Below, piece after piece: positions 33,580-42,055 of a stretch of DNA of 64,000 nucleotides. The position numbers were made by a program, and so were the translations under genes. The stretch is taken from NCBI RefSeq assembly GCF_057098645.1, contig NZ_CM169472.1; one strand, written 5' to 3'. The notes beneath the pieces were generated by a model. The model made no database searches. It was not told the origin of the DNA and worked only from the letters and a program-made list of their open reading frames with translations. Within the stretch, counting starts at the first letter, position 1, and every line of letters starts with the position of its first letter.

Positions 33580-34362
33580 TTAATCATTTTCTGGTTTGTT
33601 TGAAGTTTCATTTACAGGCTGGATCACATCCTTATTAAAATGGCGCGTTTGTTCGACTTTACCTTTTCTAGAAAGGCCTGCACCTTCTAAAATTGAATCG
33701 ATTTTATCGCCACCATTAGCTAAGAAATGCTTAAAATTTTCCGATGATAACATTTCCATTATAGGCGATGAATGGGTAGCTTCTTCAACAAATCTTAATG
33801 GCGGCTCCTCCAGTCGAGTAAGTGCATTACCAAATAACCTTTGGGTAAAGTCGCTATCAAGTTGGACAGCTTCTCTTCTATATCCCTCATAAGCTTTGGA
33901 TACTGAGGCCTTGAATTCATAATCCTCTGCCAATCTGAATCGCTGACCAATTTGTTTCGTTGCTAACCAAGCAAACCATAATGGTGCTCCAACACTTAAA
34001 ATGGAGAGTAAAAGTTGAATAGCTAACTTTATACCTGATGCGTCAGGGTTTGACAGATATGCTTCGAGAGCATGTAAACGCGTATAACCAACAGCAGCAC
34101 CTGCAACCAAAGCACCTATTAGTCCACATACCCACCAACGTATGCTCCGGTTTAATTTTTCTGCTTTATCTTGAAATGCCCCAGCCAAACCTTTTGAAGT
34201 AGTAGTTCTAAATGCCTCTTCACATTTATTAATATAACCCTGAGCTTCTTCACGGAGAGATTGTAAATAATCTTTTGCATCCTTGCTTGCATTCTGTTTC
34301 AGCGCCAAAATTTCTTGTCTGGCCTCATCTACGATTTTGGAGTTCTCTTCAGTCTCTTTAAG
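33580..34362 (-). pseudogene. 3' part of an IS1-disrupted cargo gene (two-TM protein of unknown function)
   Basis: Frame continues from the 8-bp IS1 target duplication; encodes two hydrophobic helices (WWVCGLIGALVAGAAVGY, LLLSILSVGAPLWFAWLA) and a C-terminal soluble domain. Confidence 0.6.
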
Positions 34363-34377
34363 GGTAATGACTCCAAC

Positions 34378-34881
34378 TTATTGATAGTGTTTTATGTTCA
34401 GATAATGCCCGATGACTTTGTCATGCAGCTCCACCGATTTTGAGAACGACAGCGACTTCCGTCCCAGCCGTGCCAGGTGCTGCCTCAGATTCAGGTTATG
34501 CCGCTCAATTCGCTGCGTATATCGCTTGCTGATTACGTGCAGCTTTCCCTTCAGGCGGGATTCATACAGCGGCCAGCCATCCGTCATCCATATCACCACG
34601 TCAAAGGGTGACAGCAGGCTCATAAGACGCCCCAGCGTCGCCATAGTGCGTTCACCGAATACGTGCGCAACAACCGTCTTCCGGAGCCTGTCATACGCGT
34701 AAAACAGCCAGCGCTGGCGCGATTTAGCCCCGACGTATCCCCACTGTTCGTCCATTTCCGCGCAGACGATGACGTCACTGCCCGGCTGTATGCGCGAGGT
34801 TACCGACTGCGGCCTGAGTTTTTTAAATGGCGGAAAATCGTGTTGAGGCCAACGCCCATAATGCGGGCGGTTGCCCGGCAT
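34378..34881 (-). CDS. insB: IS1 transposase InsB
   Basis: 167-aa [21 protein letters not shown]... matches IS1 InsB. Confidence 0.9.
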
Positions 34882-35075
34882 CCAACGCCATTCATGGCCA
34901 TATCAATGATTTTCTGGTGCGTACCGGGTTGAGAAGCGGTGTAAGTGAACTGCAGTTGCCATGTTTTACGGCAGTGAGAGCAGAGATAGCGCTGATGTCC
35001 GGCGGTGCTTTTGCCGTTACGCACCACCCCGTCAGTAGCTGAACAGGAGGGACAGCTGATAGAAACAGAAGCCAC
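34800..35075 (-). CDS. insA: IS1 InsA
   Basis: 91-aa ORF with zinc-finger [16 protein letters not shown]... matches IS1 InsA. Confidence 0.9.
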
Positions 35076-35130
35076 TGGAGCACCTCAAAAACACCATCAT
35101 ACACTAAATCAGTAAGTTGGCAGCATCACC

Positions 35131-35747
35131 TCTTTAAGCATGCCATTAATATTTCTGCAATGCTCAACTGCGCTATTGTAAACATTTTTAACTTCATCAT
35201 TTGTTTCACGAAGCATTTTTACTGTTGTCGGTAGATTCTCGGCTGCATCATATGCTTCATTTATAGTTTTAATTTTCTCTTCTATATTACCAGTTTCAGC
35301 TGCAATTGCAGATATACCTGAATTATATAATTCTAATCTGCGTAAAATTTGCTTTGGTAATAAATTTCTATCTTTCAGCCTCTCAAATGAAAAAAGGTCA
35401 TTAATCCTATGAGAGATATATAACATTGAAATAACATAAGATGGTATAGCGGTCTGTTGAACTGATGCGTTACCATTGTTTATATGATTAATATTTTGCT
35501 GAGCATGATCCAGAGTGTAAATGAGCGCATCAATTACTGCAATGTCATCTGAAGATGGTACAAATTCCTGCATCTGATTAATTCTATCAGATAACATTTT
35601 TGGTAGTTCTATCAGATCCTCTTTATGTAAAAAAGGAAATGTGTACGGCCCAAGGTTTATAAAATCTTCCACAGGGAATACAAGACCATTAAGTGTTGTA
35701 TGTAAATTATCTAGTTTCTCTTTTAATTCAGTTAGTTTTTCGTTCAT
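35131..35747 (-). pseudogene. 5' part of the IS1-disrupted cargo gene (N-terminal helical domain)
   Basis: About 205 native codons (MNEKLTELKEKLDNL...NINGMLKE), then the reading frame enters the IS1 inverted repeat. Confidence 0.6.
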
Positions 35748-35841
35748 TAAAAAAATCCTTTATGACGCTATAGAACTTCCAGAGTAATCCGATAAAGATA
35801 TCATAAGACAATATTTTGGTATAAACACTTATTGCGCGCGC

Positions 35842-35860
35842 TCGTATCCCCGCCACGCCT
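35842..35860. other. Candidate phage cos site (186-like cohesive end)
   Basis: Minus-strand GGCGTGGCGGGGATACGAG shares its first 13 nt with the recalled 186 cohesive end and resembles that of P2. Confidence 0.45.
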
Positions 35861-36032
35861 GCCCGCTTTATGTAGTGGTTTTCATGCACCTGCATGATCT
35901 ACGCAAAAGCCCGCCAGAACTGGCGGGCCTTAACACAAAAGATCCTCAAACGATCATGCGATCTCATGCAGCATAGACATGCGCGCTTATGCAGAATGTG
36001 CAAAATCGTAACATACTCAGTAAGCGTGAAAA

Positions 36033-36710
36033 CTAGAACGTGACAGCCTTGTCAAAGCCAGAAATAATTGTATAAGAAATAGACGAGTTATCAGCCTTGT
36101 TCACTTTGAACTTGGCACCTTTGTAAGCGATAACGTCACTTCCCTTAGAATCTACAGAAAAATCTGTTGTAAATGCTGCACGAGCCATATCGTTTGCAAA
36201 TTCACGATAGGTGAACTTCATTACACCGCCTGCATTTCCATTGTATTCGATAGTCTTAACCAATGAGTTACTAACTCGACACAGCCCATCAGGAACACGT
36301 TTGATAGAAATTTCTGATGCAGTATAAGAAGTACCATTTGGCGGTGATATCTCATTTTTTGCAGCATCGTAACTAACATAATCAACATAGTTACCGATTT
36401 GCCCATAGAGATTTTTTAACGCAACAGCTTGAGGGTTATGATAATTGCGGTAAATTCCATTCCCCTCACTGCAATATGTACCAGCAGCGATAGAAGACAA
36501 TGCACCATTAGCCGCACCAAGTTCTAGTACGTCCGTTTTAAATCCAGTAGCAGATGTGATAATGGGATCGCCCATGTAGGCGGTAGCACTTTGCCCAATA
36601 GCAGGCTTCACCACTTCAATAGCAGTGATATTTCGGTTAGAAGCATGTGGCACGCAACCAGTTAGGATTACAGCAAGAGATATTGGTAACGCTACATTAT
36701 TAATTTTCAT
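36033..36710 (-). CDS. Lipoprotein of unknown function (prophage cargo next to cos)
   Basis: Signal peptide with lipobox MKINNVALPISLAVILTGC and a Gly/Ser/Thr-rich mature domain; AT-rich. Confidence 0.7.
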   Translation of the reverse strand: MKINNVALPISLAVILTGCVPHASNRNITAIEVVKPAIGQSATAYMGDPIITSATGFKTDVLELGAANGALSSIAAGTYCSEGNGIYRNYHNPQAVALKNLYGQIGNYVDYVSYDAAKNEISPPNGTSYTASEISIKRVPDGLCRVSNSLVKTIEYNGNAGGVMKFTYREFANDMARAAFTTDFSVDSKGSDVIAYKGAKFKVNKADNSSISYTIISGFDKAVTF

Positions 36711-36823
36711 TTTTAGCCTATTATTCTTTTCTTGACAAAAAACAAGGCGATATCCGATTGACATCGCCTCTCACTCATATGTAACCCTTTTTGATTAGTA
36801 AAAACAAGCGTCTATTGACAAAA

Positions 36824-37057
36824 TCAATGCAGCCAGCTGTCGTCTTCCCACACCTTCTGCATAATTTTCATCACTTGTTTTCTTTCTTCGTCCAGTTGCA
36901 GTCCGGTCAGTTCCACACCGTTAGAGCTACCTTTACGGATACGGATTACCGTTTTGGGATACAGGGGGCGCAGATTGCGGTAAAGCTCGGATTCAAGGGC
37001 GTCCAGGGTAGACTGGCTAATCTTCTGCTCTTTATCGATCATTATTTCAATGCGCAT
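36824..37057 (-). CDS. DinI-family protein
   Basis: MRIEIMIDKEQKISQSTLDALESEL...QKVWEDDSW resembles DinI (MRIEVTIAK...ETWESADDW). Confidence 0.7.
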   Translation of the reverse strand: MRIEIMIDKEQKISQSTLDALESELYRNLRPLYPKTVIRIRKGSSNGVELTGLQLDEERKQVMKIMQKVWEDDSWLH

Positions 37058-37067
37058 AAAAGTCACC

Positions 37068-37256
37068 TCAGCTGATGACATCCATTGAGCGGTTGTATTC
37101 GTGGCTTCTGATTTTTGCCATGAGTTCATCAGTCAATTCAGAAACCCACTGCAGAGCCAGCCCCTTCTCTTCATCACTACACTCACTAGCCGCTACAAGC
37201 TTAAGAAAAAAATCAATGCGCTGGAGCTTCAAAGACTCCAAAAAATAGTCCTGCAT
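37068..37256 (-). CDS. Small SOS-controlled protein, possible Tum-like antirepressor
   Basis: 62-aa ORF directly downstream of a LexA box and upstream of the dinI-like gene, the arrangement of the 186 tum operon. Sequence similarity not confirmed. Confidence 0.35.
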   Translation of the reverse strand: MQDYFLESLKLQRIDFFLKLVAASECSDEEKGLALQWVSELTDELMAKIRSHEYNRSMDVIS

Positions 37257-37299: not shown

Positions 37300-37315
37300 C
37301 TGTTTATATTTACAG
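37300..37315. promoter_or_regulatory. LexA operator (SOS box)
   Basis: CTGTTTATATTTACAG matches the CTGT-N8-ACAG consensus, about 45 bp upstream of the tum-like ORF. Confidence 0.6.
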
Positions 37316-39416: not shown

Positions 39417-39515
39417 TGCGTATTCCGCTCTATTCGATCACGGATTGGCATCGAAGTCCGATCAGCGATTCGCATCCATTCGATCAACCGGGAACTTAAC
39501 TTTTTCTACCGCTTT

Positions 39516-40271
39516 TTAACGCGTTTTTTCGCTGCTTTCCACTACCGGGGGATTTTTCCTCAGTGACTCTCCCTGAAGGACCACTCGGTGTGAGTTATGT
39601 ACCAGTCTGTCCAGGATGGCATCTGCTGTTGTTGGGTTCTCCATCAGACCATGCCATTTATCTACCGGGAACTGGCTTACCACTATCGTGCTGCTTTGTC
39701 CGTAACGATCCTCTATGAGCTCCAGAAGGTCATTACACTGGGCGTTACTTAACTGTTCCAGCCCCAGATCGTCCAGGATTAGAACCTGTATTTTTTGCAA
39801 CTGTTTCAGATATTTCAGCCAGCTGCCATCAACACGTCCCTGAGCCAGTTGTTCCAGTAATCGCCCGGTTCTACAGTACCGGACGCTGTGTTTCTGTCGA
39901 CATGCCTGTTCGCCCAGCGCATTGGCTATCCAGCTCTTGCCACATCCTGTCGGACCGGTTATCAGCAGGTTTTTCCTGTGGGTTATGTAGTGGCCGTTCA
40001 GCAGTTCTCTCATCTGTTCAGCCCGCAGACCTCTTGAGGCCGGATAGCGCAGCCCTTCCGGTGTTGCCTGGTATTTCAGGCCGGCATTTTTTCTCAACCG
40101 TGCCACACGGCTGTTTTCCCTGCTCAGAAGCTCGTCATCAACCAGCAGCGTCAGCCTTTCCTCGAACGACAGTTCGTCGTAGGTCTGAGGCGTTTCCCGC
40201 TGCCGTATCAGGCTCCCGGCCATCGCCGGGAGTTTCAGTTGGGTCAGTTTGTTTAACAGGTTATCACTCAT
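39516..40271 (-). CDS. istB: IS21-family helper ATPase IstB
   Basis: Walker A (GPTGCGKS) and Walker B (LILDDLG) motifs; start chosen at MSDNLLNKL. Confidence 0.8.
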   Translation of the reverse strand: MSDNLLNKLTQLKLPAMAGSLIRQRETPQTYDELSFEERLTLLVDDELLSRENSRVARLRKNAGLKYQATPEGLRYPASRGLRAEQMRELLNGHYITHRKNLLITGPTGCGKSWIANALGEQACRQKHSVRYCRTGRLLEQLAQGRVDGSWLKYLKQLQKIQVLILDDLGLEQLSNAQCNDLLELIEDRYGQSSTIVVSQFPVDKWHGLMENPTTADAILDRLVHNSHRVVLQGESLRKNPPVVESSEKTR

Positions 40272-40287
40272 ACTGTTGTTCCTTCTG

Positions 40288-41823
40288 TCAGTGGTAGTAG
40301 CCCGGACCACGCAGGTTTTCATGCTCTGAAGCATATGCCGGATGTTGTTCGCCCTGGCGGGATAATGGAAGCTCCAGGTTCTCCCGATGGTGACGCAGCA
40401 GATTGTCGATAAAGCGTCTGTCAGGGGCGTTATAGTGCAGGGCAACGTAACAGGCCTTTTCCAGCCGTTCCGGGCCGTATTTTTTCTGAAGTGCCAGCAG
40501 CCCCAGAACTGCACGATAAGCCAGTTCCGGATGGGGTTTTGCCTTCAGCATGGATTCAACCACCCGGCCTGTGGACGGGCCCGTACGTTTTCCCTGCTCG
40601 ATCAGGCGTTCCGGTGTCCATGTCCCGTGCTGCCGGTGGCGCTCTGGCATGTGAAGCGGATTGGTTGTGTGTTTATATTCATGTGTGCTGCGCGGATGTT
40701 GCGCCACACACTGCCCCTTGTGCCAGAGCTGTACCACCGACTGCCCCGCCTTCAGTGACAGACGCTGACCGACCAGTTCGTGTGGAACGGAGTACCAGTG
40801 ACGGGCATATTCAACGTGGTAGTCAGGGCCAACCTTCACAGCTTTGTATTCCGTGTATTCATAAGGTGCCAGAGGCAGCGGAGAGAGTGCTGGCGCATCC
40901 AGTATGCGGAAGCGTTCTGCACGGGTTTGATTGCCGTACCCCTTCATTGGCCGGTTATTCATGTCTGTCAGTAACTCCCTAAGGCGCGCATTCAGCGCCC
41001 TGAGCGTGTGGAAGGTTTCATTACGGATGCGGGCAAGAAGCCATCGTTCAACGATGAGGACGCCGTTTTCTGCTTTTGGTTTATCTTTAGGTTTGCGTGG
41101 TCGGGCCGGGATGATAACCGTGCCATAGTGCTCAGCCAGTGCCTGATAACTGTCGTTGATGACAGGCTCATATCGATCGGCCTTTTTCACTGCGCTTCTG
41201 AGGTTATCGGGGATGAGCAGCTTCGGTACGCCGCCCAGGAAGGTCAGGCAACGGCTGTGGGCATTTAACCATGACATCATGTCCTGACCTTCGCACGCTT
41301 CAACGTAGGTATAGTTGGACGCCCCCATTACGGCCACGAAGATTGCCACGCGGCGTATCTCACCGGTGTCCGGATTAATAACAGGAACCGTAGGACCACA
41401 GAAGTCGATAAAAAGCTTTTCGCCGGCACGATGCTCCTGGCGCATGGAGAGACGTCGCGTTTTTTTCCACTCCCGGTAGCAACGGCAGAAGTGCGAGTAT
41501 CCCATCGCTTTGTTACCCGCCTGTGCCTTGTATTCCATCCACAACAGTTGCCGCGTCACACCTGGTTTTCTCATTTCCGTATCGAAGTACAACATGTCAG
41601 GCATTACAAGCTCTGATGCAAAGGTGTCTTTGGGCGGAAAAATGAGTTTCTCCAGCGTGTCATGGGATATATCAGCAGGTAATGGCCATGACAGAGAAGA
41701 GGCTTTGAAGCGGGCAAGAACCTCAAAAACGGTTGAGGCGCTGATGTGTAACGTCAGTCCGATACAACGGTTAGTCAGCTTCTTGTCGAACTTGAGCTGA
41801 AGGATCTTAAAACAGGTTTCCAT
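40288..41823 (-). CDS. istA: IS21-family transposase IstA
   Basis: About 512-aa product with integrase-type catalytic core; start chosen at METCFKILQL. Confidence 0.8.
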   Translation of the reverse strand: METCFKILQLKFDKKLTNRCIGLTLHISASTVFEVLARFKASSLSWPLPADISHDTLEKLIFPPKDTFASELVMPDMLYFDTEMRKPGVTRQLLWMEYKAQAGNKAMGYSHFCRCYREWKKTRRLSMRQEHRAGEKLFIDFCGPTVPVINPDTGEIRRVAIFVAVMGASNYTYVEACEGQDMMSWLNAHSRCLTFLGGVPKLLIPDNLRSAVKKADRYEPVINDSYQALAEHYGTVIIPARPRKPKDKPKAENGVLIVERWLLARIRNETFHTLRALNARLRELLTDMNNRPMKGYGNQTRAERFRILDAPALSPLPLAPYEYTEYKAVKVGPDYHVEYARHWYSVPHELVGQRLSLKAGQSVVQLWHKGQCVAQHPRSTHEYKHTTNPLHMPERHRQHGTWTPERLIEQGKRTGPSTGRVVESMLKAKPHPELAYRAVLGLLALQKKYGPERLEKACYVALHYNAPDRRFIDNLLRHHRENLELPLSRQGEQHPAYASEHENLRGPGYYH

Positions 41824-42055
41824 AGTGCTCCTGGATTTTCTCTTTCTGGACATTGACGTCTCCACTGGTTTAAACACGGCAATGGAGACTGTGGTGAAAA
41901 GAGTTAATTCCCGGAGTGACTGGCAGGATGCCAATCAATGATCGGAAGCATGCCAAATCGTGATCGATTGTGATGCCAAACTGTGATCGGAGATGGATGC
42001 CAAATCATGATCGATTCGAATGCCAAACTGCGATCGATTCAGATGCCATTTTGCA

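What the first reader, a model, noticed from the sequence alone, without database searches (positions are those of the whole stretch)
36033..36710. Cos-adjacent lipoprotein gene, candidate superinfection-exclusion or defense cargo
Between cos and the SOS-controlled tum/dinI operon lies a stand-alone, AT-rich gene for a lipoprotein of about 225 aa with a clear lipobox (LAVILTGC). It has no role in P2 morphogenesis or replication. Known prophage-encoded surface lipoproteins (for example Cor, T5 Llp) block receptors of competing phages. Together with the IS1-split gene it makes a two-gene cargo block across cos.
Basis: partly seen in the sequence, partly recalled or inferred. Interest (0 to 1): 0.6.

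Follow-up and report, generated by a model that had tools for sequence, protein, structure and literature searches.

The report
Orphan prophage lipoprotein gene beside cos
This is a real, well-conserved accessory gene of a P2/Fels-2-type prophage that encodes an outer-membrane-type lipoprotein from a large, uncharacterised family found in temperate phages; blocking other phages at the cell envelope is the best guess for its job, but that is untested.

Summary
Window 36033-36710 (-) encodes a 225-aa prolipoprotein (lipobox LTG|C19). It is the last gene before cos of a Fels-2/186-like prophage and is identical to E. coli HS WP_000700647 and 99% identical to Fels-2 STM2726.

It is a discrete, AT-rich cassette of about 1 kb. 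Homology to phages that lack it stops exactly at the dinI stop codon and just past cos. Hairpin terminators flank the ORF. It is under strong purifying selection (dN/dS 0.04-0.15).

It matches phrog_1353 over its full length. It matches nothing in Pfam, NCBIfam, PADLOC or the PDB, and the predicted all-beta fold has no informative structural neighbour.

The family is large (2434 clusters at 50% identity). Nearly every context I examined was a temperate phage or mobile island:
- P2-like phages, next to cos
- lambda-like prophages, near OLD/AbiC-like genes
- SSU5-like phage-plasmids
- many siphoviruses, directly upstream of the tape-measure gene, which is the slot of the HK97 gp15 exclusion moron

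The lipoprotein does not co-vary with its phage's tail fibre or tape measure. The gene across cos differs in 21 of 37 loci, so there is no two-gene system. Superinfection exclusion or defence is plausible but unproven, and no canonical promoter was found. A published microarray shows the STM2726-2728 unit rising after SOS induction.

The parts
36033..36710 (-). Coding sequence of the 225-aa prolipoprotein. Identical to WP_000700647 / EcHS_A0921 and 99% identical to Fels-2 STM2726. Member of phrog_1353.
   Evidence: dN/dS 0.04-0.15
36654..36710 (-). Signal peptide (residues 1-18) and the lipid-modified Cys19 (codon 36654-36656). Lipobox L-T-G-C. The +2 residue is Val, not Asp, so outer-membrane sorting is predicted by the E. 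coli Lol rule (established knowledge).
36711..36823 (-). 113-nt cassette leader between the dinI stop codon and the ATG. It travels with the lipoprotein gene and holds no canonical promoter for the ORF.
   Evidence: homology break at 36826; promoter scan; alignment
36735..36770 (-). Terminator-like hairpin (11 pairs, 36744-36770) followed by a T-run. It lies 33 nt upstream of the ATG. It is conserved with a compensatory change in an 88%-identical relative.
   Evidence: dG -16.7 kcal/mol, z -3.8
35901..35931 (-). Intrinsic terminator hairpin plus U-run downstream of the lipoprotein ORF, before cos.
   Evidence: dG -23 kcal/mol, z -4.6
35841..35859 (-). cos cohesive-end core, GGCGTGGCGGGGATACGAG. 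The cassette ends here. Homology to Fels-2 and Klebsiella phages stops at about 35834.
36824..37256 (-). Context: the upstream tum-like (62 aa, 37068-37256) and DinI-like (77 aa, 36824-37056) genes.
37300..37315 (-). Context: LexA box (CTGT-N8-ACAG) in front of the tum-dinI genes. It may drive read-through expression of the lipoprotein.
   Evidence: microarray in PMC2225428

Best explanation
The gene is a moron: a self-contained accessory cassette of about 1 kb at the extreme right end of a Fels-2/186-type prophage genome. Its product is exported, lipid-modified at Cys19 and, from the +2 Val, sorted to the outer membrane. A conserved Cys80-Cys144 pair probably forms a disulphide. I infer that it works at the cell envelope of the lysogen, or of the induced cell, to hinder infection by other phages, either at adsorption or at DNA entry through the periplasm. 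It would do so by acting on a conserved host envelope component or on incoming tail proteins, and not by masking its own phage's receptor. Shown here: the gene, the lipobox, the cassette boundaries, purifying selection, restriction of the family to temperate elements, and its recurrent placement in moron and defence slots. Inferred: membrane location, time of expression, and the anti-phage activity itself.
For: 1. The lipobox and Cys19 are invariant across the family.
2. The cassette boundaries fall exactly at the dinI stop codon and at cos. GC is 41% against 55% for the structural genes. Hairpins flank the ORF.
3. dN/dS is 0.04-0.15.
4. The gene lies in the published P2 gpA-gpQ defence hotspot and is listed there with changing partners. 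The neighbour across cos is AbiU in Fels-2 and in a Klebsiella phage.
5. Relatives at 54-57% identity sit in other prophages or islands beside OLD-like nuclease, AbiC-like and nSTAND genes.
6. In a distant subfamily, 42 of 60 evaluable viral loci (10 of 16 sequence clusters) place the gene directly upstream of the tape-measure gene. All eight downstream ORFs tested were tape-measure proteins. This is the slot of the HK97 gp15 superinfection-exclusion moron (PMC3594210). Those copies have promoter-like and terminator-like sites and a GC dip.
7. Among 50,697 GenBank phage records, the full-length matches are all to P2-like phages, Acinetobacter Vieuvirus phages or Moraxella Mcat28. I take these to be temperate from general knowledge. 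The only other hit was a partial one in a Microcystis phage. Copies also occur in SSU5/pHCM2-like phage-plasmids, as a lone gene on the opposite strand.
Against: - No experiment or homology links this family to phage exclusion.
- There is no PADLOC, Pfam or NCBIfam match.
- Hotspot or moron position is guilt by association. Morons also encode virulence and fitness factors.
- No canonical promoter was found, and a terminator-like hairpin sits just upstream, so expression in the uninduced lysogen is unproven.
- The only expression data show SOS-linked induction of the STM2726-2728 unit. That fits a role during induction at least as well as a role in the lysogen.
- At least one family member lies in a context not obviously phage-derived.
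Confidence: 0.4

Rival explanations
1. It is a lysogenic-conversion factor unrelated to phages. The outer-membrane lipoprotein would change host surface properties such as serum or complement resistance, adhesion, or tolerance of envelope stress, as lambda Bor and plasmid TraT do.
For: It has the same gene class and moron architecture as bor (cites Bor and Lom as moron products). The lipoprotein is 99-100% conserved across E. coli, Klebsiella and Salmonella phages whatever their tail fibre or tape measure, which fits a host-directed or environment-directed target. The family is restricted to temperate elements.
Against: There is no similarity to any Pfam family, Bor and TraT included, even at E<=10. 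The gene is repeatedly placed next to tape-measure genes and among defence genes. The family is widespread in environmental bacteria such as Shewanella, Acinetobacter soli and marine metagenomes, where serum resistance is irrelevant.
Confidence: 0.28
2. It helps the phage's own lytic cycle after induction. Made by read-through from the LexA-controlled tum-dinI promoter, it would protect the induced cell or the progeny, for example by preventing superinfection or re-adsorption of progeny to debris as T5 Llp does, or by modulating the envelope before lysis.
For: The gene order is LexA box, tum, dinI, hairpin, lipoprotein, with no separate canonical promoter. In MX-treated Salmonella all three genes of the predicted unit STM2726-2727-2728 rose, from 14.8-fold for the best gene to 2.6-fold for the weakest, all with p<=0.01 (PMC2225428). 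In siphovirus relatives the gene sits inside the late tail operon.
Against: No full-length homologue was found in a virulent phage among 50,697 records. The gene does not co-vary with the phage's receptor-binding protein. The P2-type lysis genes (holin, lysozyme, LysB) are present elsewhere. The paper does not give the fold change for STM2726 itself, and prophage replication could explain part of the rise.
Confidence: 0.17
3. It is one half of a two-gene system with the IS1-split gene on the other side of cos.
For: The two genes are adjacent in the prophage, and both are AT-rich cargo. The intact 463-aa partner exists in E. coli HS.
Against: The partner across cos falls into 21 unrelated types among 37 lipoprotein-bearing loci, and none of them carries the HS/window type. 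It is AbiU in Fels-2 and in a Klebsiella phage. Here the lipoprotein stays intact while the partner is destroyed by IS1. Family members elsewhere are single genes.
Confidence: 0.03
4. It is a decaying or functionless passenger ORF.
For: The host prophage is degraded: IS21-family and IS1 insertions. No promoter was found.
Against: dN/dS is 0.04-0.15 with saturated synonymous divergence. There are 0 nonsynonymous against 8 synonymous differences to the Klebsiella phage copy. The family has 2434 clusters with invariant Cys, Gly and Tyr positions.
Confidence: 0.02

Closest known systems
HK97 gp15 superinfection-exclusion moron (Cumby et al. 2012; reviewed in PMC3594210)
   Same: It is a prophage accessory gene for an envelope protein. 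Distant members of the lipoprotein family occupy the same slot, between the tail assembly chaperone and tape-measure genes, with their own promoter-like and terminator-like signals.
   Different: gp15 is a small inner-membrane protein of the YebO family, not a lipoprotein, and there is no sequence relationship. The window copy lies next to cos in a myovirus, not in a tail operon.
Cor (phi80/N15/HK022) and T5 Llp, phage outer-membrane lipoproteins that inactivate FhuA
   Different: From memory, Cor and Llp are several-fold smaller, their genes are linked to the receptor-binding protein, and they target the phage's own receptor. Here there is no Pfam or sequence similarity. The gene is independent of tail-fibre type. 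T5 is virulent, whereas this family was found only in temperate elements.
P2 old and tin, and other cargo of the P2 gpA-gpQ cos-proximal hotspot (Rousset et al. 2022, PMC9122126)
   Same: Same genomic position. The protein itself appears in that paper's hotspot table.
   Different: Old, Tin, AbiU, retrons and the like are cytoplasmic nucleic-acid-directed or abortive-infection systems. This is a secreted lipoprotein with no match to a defence model, and I found no record that it was tested.
Lambda Bor/Iss and plasmid TraT lipoproteins
   Same: They are outer-membrane lipoproteins carried by mobile elements as lysogenic-conversion or surface-exclusion factors.
   Different: No sequence similarity: no Pfam match at E<=10. 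The size and the predicted two-part all-beta architecture differ, and no solved structure resembles the model.
Ltp of Streptococcus phage TP-J34, a lipoprotein that blocks DNA injection through the tape measure protein
   Same: It is a prophage lipoprotein acting outside the cytoplasmic membrane. The adjacency of this family to tape-measure genes invites the analogy.
   Different: Ltp is from a Gram-positive host, has an unrelated sequence and fold, and its gene lies in the lysogeny module (from memory). Here the lipoprotein does not co-vary with its own phage's tape measure (31-64% identity against 99-100%).

Membership tests
Bacterial lipoproteins (signal peptidase II substrates) | N-terminal signal peptide ending in a lipobox [LVI][ASTVI][GAS]C with an invariant Cys | tested here: met
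   The N-terminus MK-INNVALPISLAVI-LTG-C19 fits. Gly18 and Cys19 are invariant in 22 homologues, and Cys19 in 61. About 115 of 148 representatives carry a lipobox.
Bacterial lipoproteins (signal peptidase II substrates) | Actual lipid modification and membrane localisation | not testable with these tools
   This needs globomycin or palmitate labelling and cell fractionation. Outer-membrane sorting is only inferred from Val at +2.
PHROG phrog_1353 (phage proteins of unknown function) | Full-length match to the family profile | tested here: met
   E = 3.1e-105, residues 1-223 on profile positions 1-230 of 230.
Moron (Juhala/Hendrix sense) | Extra DNA between genes or sites that are adjacent in related phages | tested here: met
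   Phages that lack it lose homology exactly at the dinI stop codon (window 36826). Phages that carry it keep homology to about 35834, just past cos. It is present in 53 E. coli genomes against 1280 with tum/dinI.
Moron (Juhala/Hendrix sense) | Base composition different from the surrounding phage genes | tested here: met
   41% GC against 55%.
Moron (Juhala/Hendrix sense) | Own promoter and terminator allowing expression from the repressed prophage | tested here: inconclusive
   A downstream terminator is present. There is no canonical sigma-70 promoter for the ORF: the one promoter-like site overlaps the ATG. Distant relatives do have promoter-like sites.
P2-like cos-proximal defence-hotspot cargo (Rousset 2022) | Located between gpA and gpQ next to cos, and variable between phages | tested here: met
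P2-like cos-proximal defence-hotspot cargo (Rousset 2022) | Anti-phage activity, or homology to a known defence protein | tested here: not met
   No PADLOC family at E<=0.01. Activity itself cannot be tested here.
Cor/Llp-type receptor-masking exclusion lipoproteins | Sequence or profile similarity to Cor or Llp | tested here: not met
   No Pfam family matched at E<=10 for the query. None reached E<=0.001 in any of 61 family members. The only PHROG hit was phrog_1353.
Cor/Llp-type receptor-masking exclusion lipoproteins | Genetic linkage or co-variation with the phage's own receptor-binding protein | tested here: not met
   The tail fibre H of the Klebsiella phage is unrelated to those of the window and Fels-2. 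The window and Fels-2 fibres share only their N-terminal parts. The lipoprotein is 99-100% identical in all three.
Cor/Llp-type receptor-masking exclusion lipoproteins | Blocks adsorption or uptake through a defined outer-membrane receptor | not testable with these tools
   Needs adsorption assays.
GfcB/YjbF (YmcC) group 4 capsule lipoproteins | Sequence or structural similarity to YjbF/YmcC | tested here: not met

The most novel reading that the evidence does not exclude
The protein is a founding, experimentally tractable member of a very large, unannotated family of temperate-phage lipoproteins (at least 2400 clusters at 50% identity, with no Pfam model and no solved structure resembling the model). 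On this reading the family acts from the periplasmic face of the outer membrane to stop incoming phage tails from delivering DNA. That would be a general Gram-negative counterpart of Ltp or HK97 gp15, and it would explain why the gene so often sits next to tape-measure genes.
Probability: 0.15. Interest if true: 0.75.

Novelty: new member of a known kind. Interest (0 to 1): 0.45.

Why it matters
Prophage genes that remodel the cell envelope decide which other phages can infect a strain. That matters for phage therapy against Klebsiella, Salmonella and E. coli. This exact protein is carried, 100% identical, by prophages of epidemic K. pneumoniae clones (ST11, ST258, ST512) and, 99% identical, by Salmonella Fels-2. 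The family is large, restricted to temperate elements in the phage records and most contexts I looked at, and has no annotation, no domain model and no informative structural neighbour. A single expression-and-challenge experiment could therefore assign a function to thousands of 'hypothetical' phage genes. If it is not anti-phage, it is still a widespread lysogenic-conversion candidate.

Tried and rejected
- Pfam (query and 61 diverse members), NCBIfam, PADLOC and PDB sequence profiles gave no match.
- Literature searches for STM2726, WP_000700647, Fels-2 lipoprotein and prophage lipoprotein exclusion found no functional study. They found only a microarray operon listing and a hotspot table entry.
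- Rfam found nothing credible for the leader hairpin.
- The promoter search in the 113-nt leader gave only a site overlapping the start codon and weak hand-read candidates. None is conserved in the 88%-identical relative.
- My first LexA pattern was mis-specified and was corrected.
- A broad alignment (A2) was too diverse to seed a locus search, so I used sub-alignments instead.
- The 243-aa start codon used in the Fels-2 annotation was rejected, because it lies inside the hairpin and is not conserved.

Full report
**What is there**

The ORF at window 36033-36710 on the minus strand encodes 225 aa beginning MKINNVALPISLAVILTGC. This is a classical prolipoprotein N-terminus: Lys2, an uncharged hydrophobic core, and lipobox L-T-G-C19. 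Gly18 and Cys19 are invariant in 22 close homologues, and Cys19 is invariant in 61 diverse ones. About 115 of 148 family representatives have a lipobox at the same place. Residue +2 is Val. By the E. coli Lol rule (established knowledge) this predicts outer-membrane sorting. Two further cysteines (C80, C144) are invariant among close homologues, which suggests a periplasmic disulphide; this is inference. The 243-aa reading annotated in Fels-2 starts inside an upstream hairpin and is not conserved, so I use the 225-aa form, as NCBI's pipeline does for E. coli HS.

**Identity and host element**

The DNA is 100% identical over 1.6 kb to E. coli HS (EcHS_A0921 / WP_000700647). The protein is 100% identical in many Klebsiella pneumoniae Peduoviridae prophages and 99% identical to Fels-2 STM2726. 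The surrounding window is an HS-type P2/186-like prophage. On the minus strand the order is:
- gpA
- LexA box (37300-37315)
- a 62-aa tum-like gene
- a 77-aa DinI-like gene
- the lipoprotein
- cos
- a 463-aa cargo gene
- the portal gene Q

The cos core at 35841-35859 aligns with the annotated cohesive ends of PSP3/186 and P2. Compared with HS, this copy has two insertions. An IS1 (about 34363-35129, with a 9-bp duplication) lies in the 463-aa gene. A 2.6-kb IS21-family element (39417-42055) lies in gpA. The prophage is therefore probably defective, while the lipoprotein gene remains intact.

**A discrete cassette**

Phages that have tum and dinI but not the lipoprotein lose homology exactly at the dinI stop codon (query position 227, window 36826). 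Phages that carry the lipoprotein keep homology down to about 35834, a few bases beyond cos. The cassette therefore runs from about 35834 to 36823 and consists of:
- a 113-nt leader
- the ORF
- a 3' terminator hairpin (about 35901-35931, dG -23 kcal/mol, z -4.6)
- cos

The leader contains a second terminator-like hairpin with a T-run (36735-36770, dG -16.7 kcal/mol, z -3.8). This hairpin is kept, with a compensatory change, in an 88%-identical relative. GC content is 41% against 55% for the structural genes.

The gene evolves under strong purifying selection. dN/dS is 0.15 against Fels-2, 0.065 against a 96%-identical copy and 0.04 against a 79%-identical copy. Against the Klebsiella phage copy there are 0 nonsynonymous and 8 synonymous differences.

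**Expression**

I found no canonical sigma-70 promoter for the ORF. The one promoter-like site overlaps the start codon. The only expression data are from a microarray of MX-treated (SOS-inducing) Salmonella. There the predicted unit STM2726-2727-2728 had all three genes up. The change was 14.8-fold for the best gene, the DinI homologue STM2727, and 2.6-fold for the weakest, with p<=0.01 for all (PMC2225428). Partial read-through of the leader hairpin from the LexA-controlled promoter is thus a reasonable inference. The value for STM2726 itself is not printed, and prophage replication is a confounder.

**Not a two-gene system**

In 47 IMG/VR loci the tum-dinI-lipoprotein spacing is fixed, but the distance to the portal gene varies from 1.0 to 3.6 kb. 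Clustering the DNA between cos and the portal gene gives 21 unrelated cargo types among 37 loci. None of them shares the HS/window gene. In Fels-2 and in a Klebsiella phage the neighbour is AbiU. In Rousset's table one arrangement includes an AIPR-domain protein. In virion DNA the two genes lie at opposite ends of the genome.

**Not tied to the phage's own receptor or tape measure**

I compared the window prophage, Fels-2 and Klebsiella phage ST11-OXA245phi3.1. The Klebsiella tail fibre H has no detectable similarity to the other two. The window and Fels-2 fibres share only their N-terminal portions. The tape measures are 31-64% identical. The lipoprotein is 99-100% identical in all three. This argues against a Cor/Llp-style mask of the phage's own receptor.

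**The family**

The query matches phrog_1353 (unknown function) end to end. It matches nothing in Pfam (even at E<=10), NCBIfam, PADLOC or PDB sequence profiles. None of 61 diverse members hits a Pfam family at E<=0.001.

A profile search of 1.84 billion cluster representatives finds 2434 proteins at E<=1e-3 and 1256 at E<=1e-10. Almost all are 210-240 aa. The best-conserved part is a C-terminal module of about 75 aa (...YNGK.G..L.F.YREF...AR.AFT....D......YKGA..EV..A.N..I.YKV..NF). This module also ends some 340-380-aa secreted proteins that are not lipoproteins.

AlphaFold2 gives an all-beta model with mean pLDDT 80. It has no informative structural neighbour:
- AFDB50 neighbours are unnamed 'Lipoprotein' entries.
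- The best Z in an AFDB sample is 9.5, again an unnamed lipoprotein.

**Where family members live**

| Element type | Placement of the gene |
|---|---|
| P2-like phages | Next to cos |
| Lambda-like prophages or islands with serine recombinases (54-57% identity; E. coli, Citrobacter, Klebsiella, Pantoea) | Near the terminase end, beside OLD-like nuclease, AbiC-like or nSTAND genes |
| SSU5/pHCM2-like phage-plasmids (about 37% identity) | A lone gene on the opposite strand |
| Siphovirus prophages of Acinetobacter, Moraxella, Shewanella and metagenomes | In or near tail modules, most often directly upstream of the tape-measure gene |

For the siphovirus subfamily, 175 IMG/VR contigs encode a relative. 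Of the 60 evaluable loci, 42 place the gene directly upstream of a tape-measure-sized ORF, representing 10 of 16 sequence clusters. All eight downstream ORFs tested were tape-measure proteins. These copies have promoter-like and terminator-like flanks and a GC dip. This is the slot of the archetypal HK97 gp15 moron, a superinfection-exclusion protein (PMC3594210).

Among 50,697 GenBank phage records, the full-length matches are all to P2-like, Vieuvirus or Moraxella Mcat28 phages, which I take to be temperate from general knowledge. The only other hit was a partial one in a Microcystis phage. One metagenomic member sits in a context that is not obviously phage-derived.

**Interpretation**

The safe conclusion is that this is an accessory (moron) gene for an envelope lipoprotein of a large, uncharacterised family associated with temperate phages. 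Confidence is about 0.9.

For mechanism, I commit to superinfection exclusion at the envelope, by adsorption block or periplasmic DNA-entry block, aimed at something other than the phage's own receptor. Confidence is about 0.4. The basis is:
- the envelope location
- restriction to temperate elements
- the published defence hotspot
- defence-gene neighbours
- the recurrent gp15-type slot

All of this is association, not demonstration.

The main rivals are:
- a Bor/TraT-like host-fitness factor (about 0.28)
- an induction-time helper expressed from the SOS promoter (about 0.17)
- a two-gene system with the split neighbour (largely refuted)
- a functionless ORF (refuted by the selection data)

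**Novelty and score**

The gene is already in the databases as 'hypothetical protein', and its location is a published hotspot. No functional study surfaced in my searches. I file it as a new, sequence-unrelated member of the known kind 'prophage-encoded envelope lipoprotein moron'. Interest is moderate (0.45). It is not surprising to a specialist, but it is a cheap and well-defined experimental target, and the answer would annotate a very large family.

Noticed in passing
window 39417-42055: A 2.6-kb IS21-family element (IstA/IstB) is inserted in the replication endonuclease gene gpA, with a 6-bp overlap relative to the intact E. coli HS prophage. The prophage is probably replication-defective.
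   Followed up: partly
window 34363-35129 (flanking ORFs 33580-34308 and 35109-35747): An IS1 with a 9-bp target duplication splits a 463-aa cargo gene (phrog_34659) that is intact in E. coli HS as WP_001003256. The protein looks like a coiled-coil or membrane protein. It has no solid Pfam or PADLOC match, only a weak JetC-like coiled-coil hit.
   Followed up: partly
window 36735-36770: A terminator-like hairpin plus T-run belongs to the lipoprotein cassette and not to the generic tum-dinI unit. It sits 33 nt before the ATG and is conserved with a compensatory base change. It may attenuate read-through from the LexA promoter, much as colicin lysis lipoprotein genes lie behind a terminator.
   Followed up: partly
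L001 5946-7643 (Fels-2 STM2723.1) and L002 5954-7696 (Klebsiella phage ST11-OXA245phi3.1): The gene across cos in these phages, annotated 'hypothetical protein', matches the PADLOC AbiU model (E = 2.7e-112 and 1.8e-34).
   Followed up: partly
L001 4947-5678 (Fels-2 STM2726 annotation): The Fels-2 record annotates a 243-aa product whose start codon lies inside the upstream hairpin. The 225-aa start that gives a proper signal peptide is the conserved one.
   Followed up: yes
L157 6956-7633; L158 5926-6603: Homologues at about 37% identity occur on 95-128 kb 'non-mobilizable' IncFIB plasmids of E. coli, Shigella and Citrobacter. From their primase, DnaB, ligase and tail-fibre genes these look like SSU5/pHCM2-type phage-plasmids. 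The gene is a lone insert on the opposite strand.
   Followed up: partly
L066 5091-5857 and 11436-12023 (Acinetobacter phage Ab1656-2): The gap between the chaperone and tape-measure genes also holds a pair of genes (DUF4258 and HTH) that looks like a toxin-antitoxin module. A second, unrelated lipoprotein gene follows the tape-measure gene. The tail operon there is a multi-moron site.
   Followed up: no
protein collection, cluster of the query: The 90%-identity cluster holding this lipoprotein is wrongly merged with branched-chain amino acid transaminases, and a 308-aa IlvE is its representative. This is why the exact protein did not appear among the word-indexed search hits.
   Followed up: no
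P0101, P0154, P0158, P0166: Secreted proteins of 340-380 aa that lack a lipobox carry the same conserved C-terminal module of about 75 aa. The module therefore behaves as an independent domain.
   Followed up: no
L156 9591-13766: A metagenomic family member lies next to HxsD and radical-SAM genes and directly upstream of a 1391-aa ORF with no Pfam match. It is unclear whether that ORF is a tape measure.
   Followed up: no
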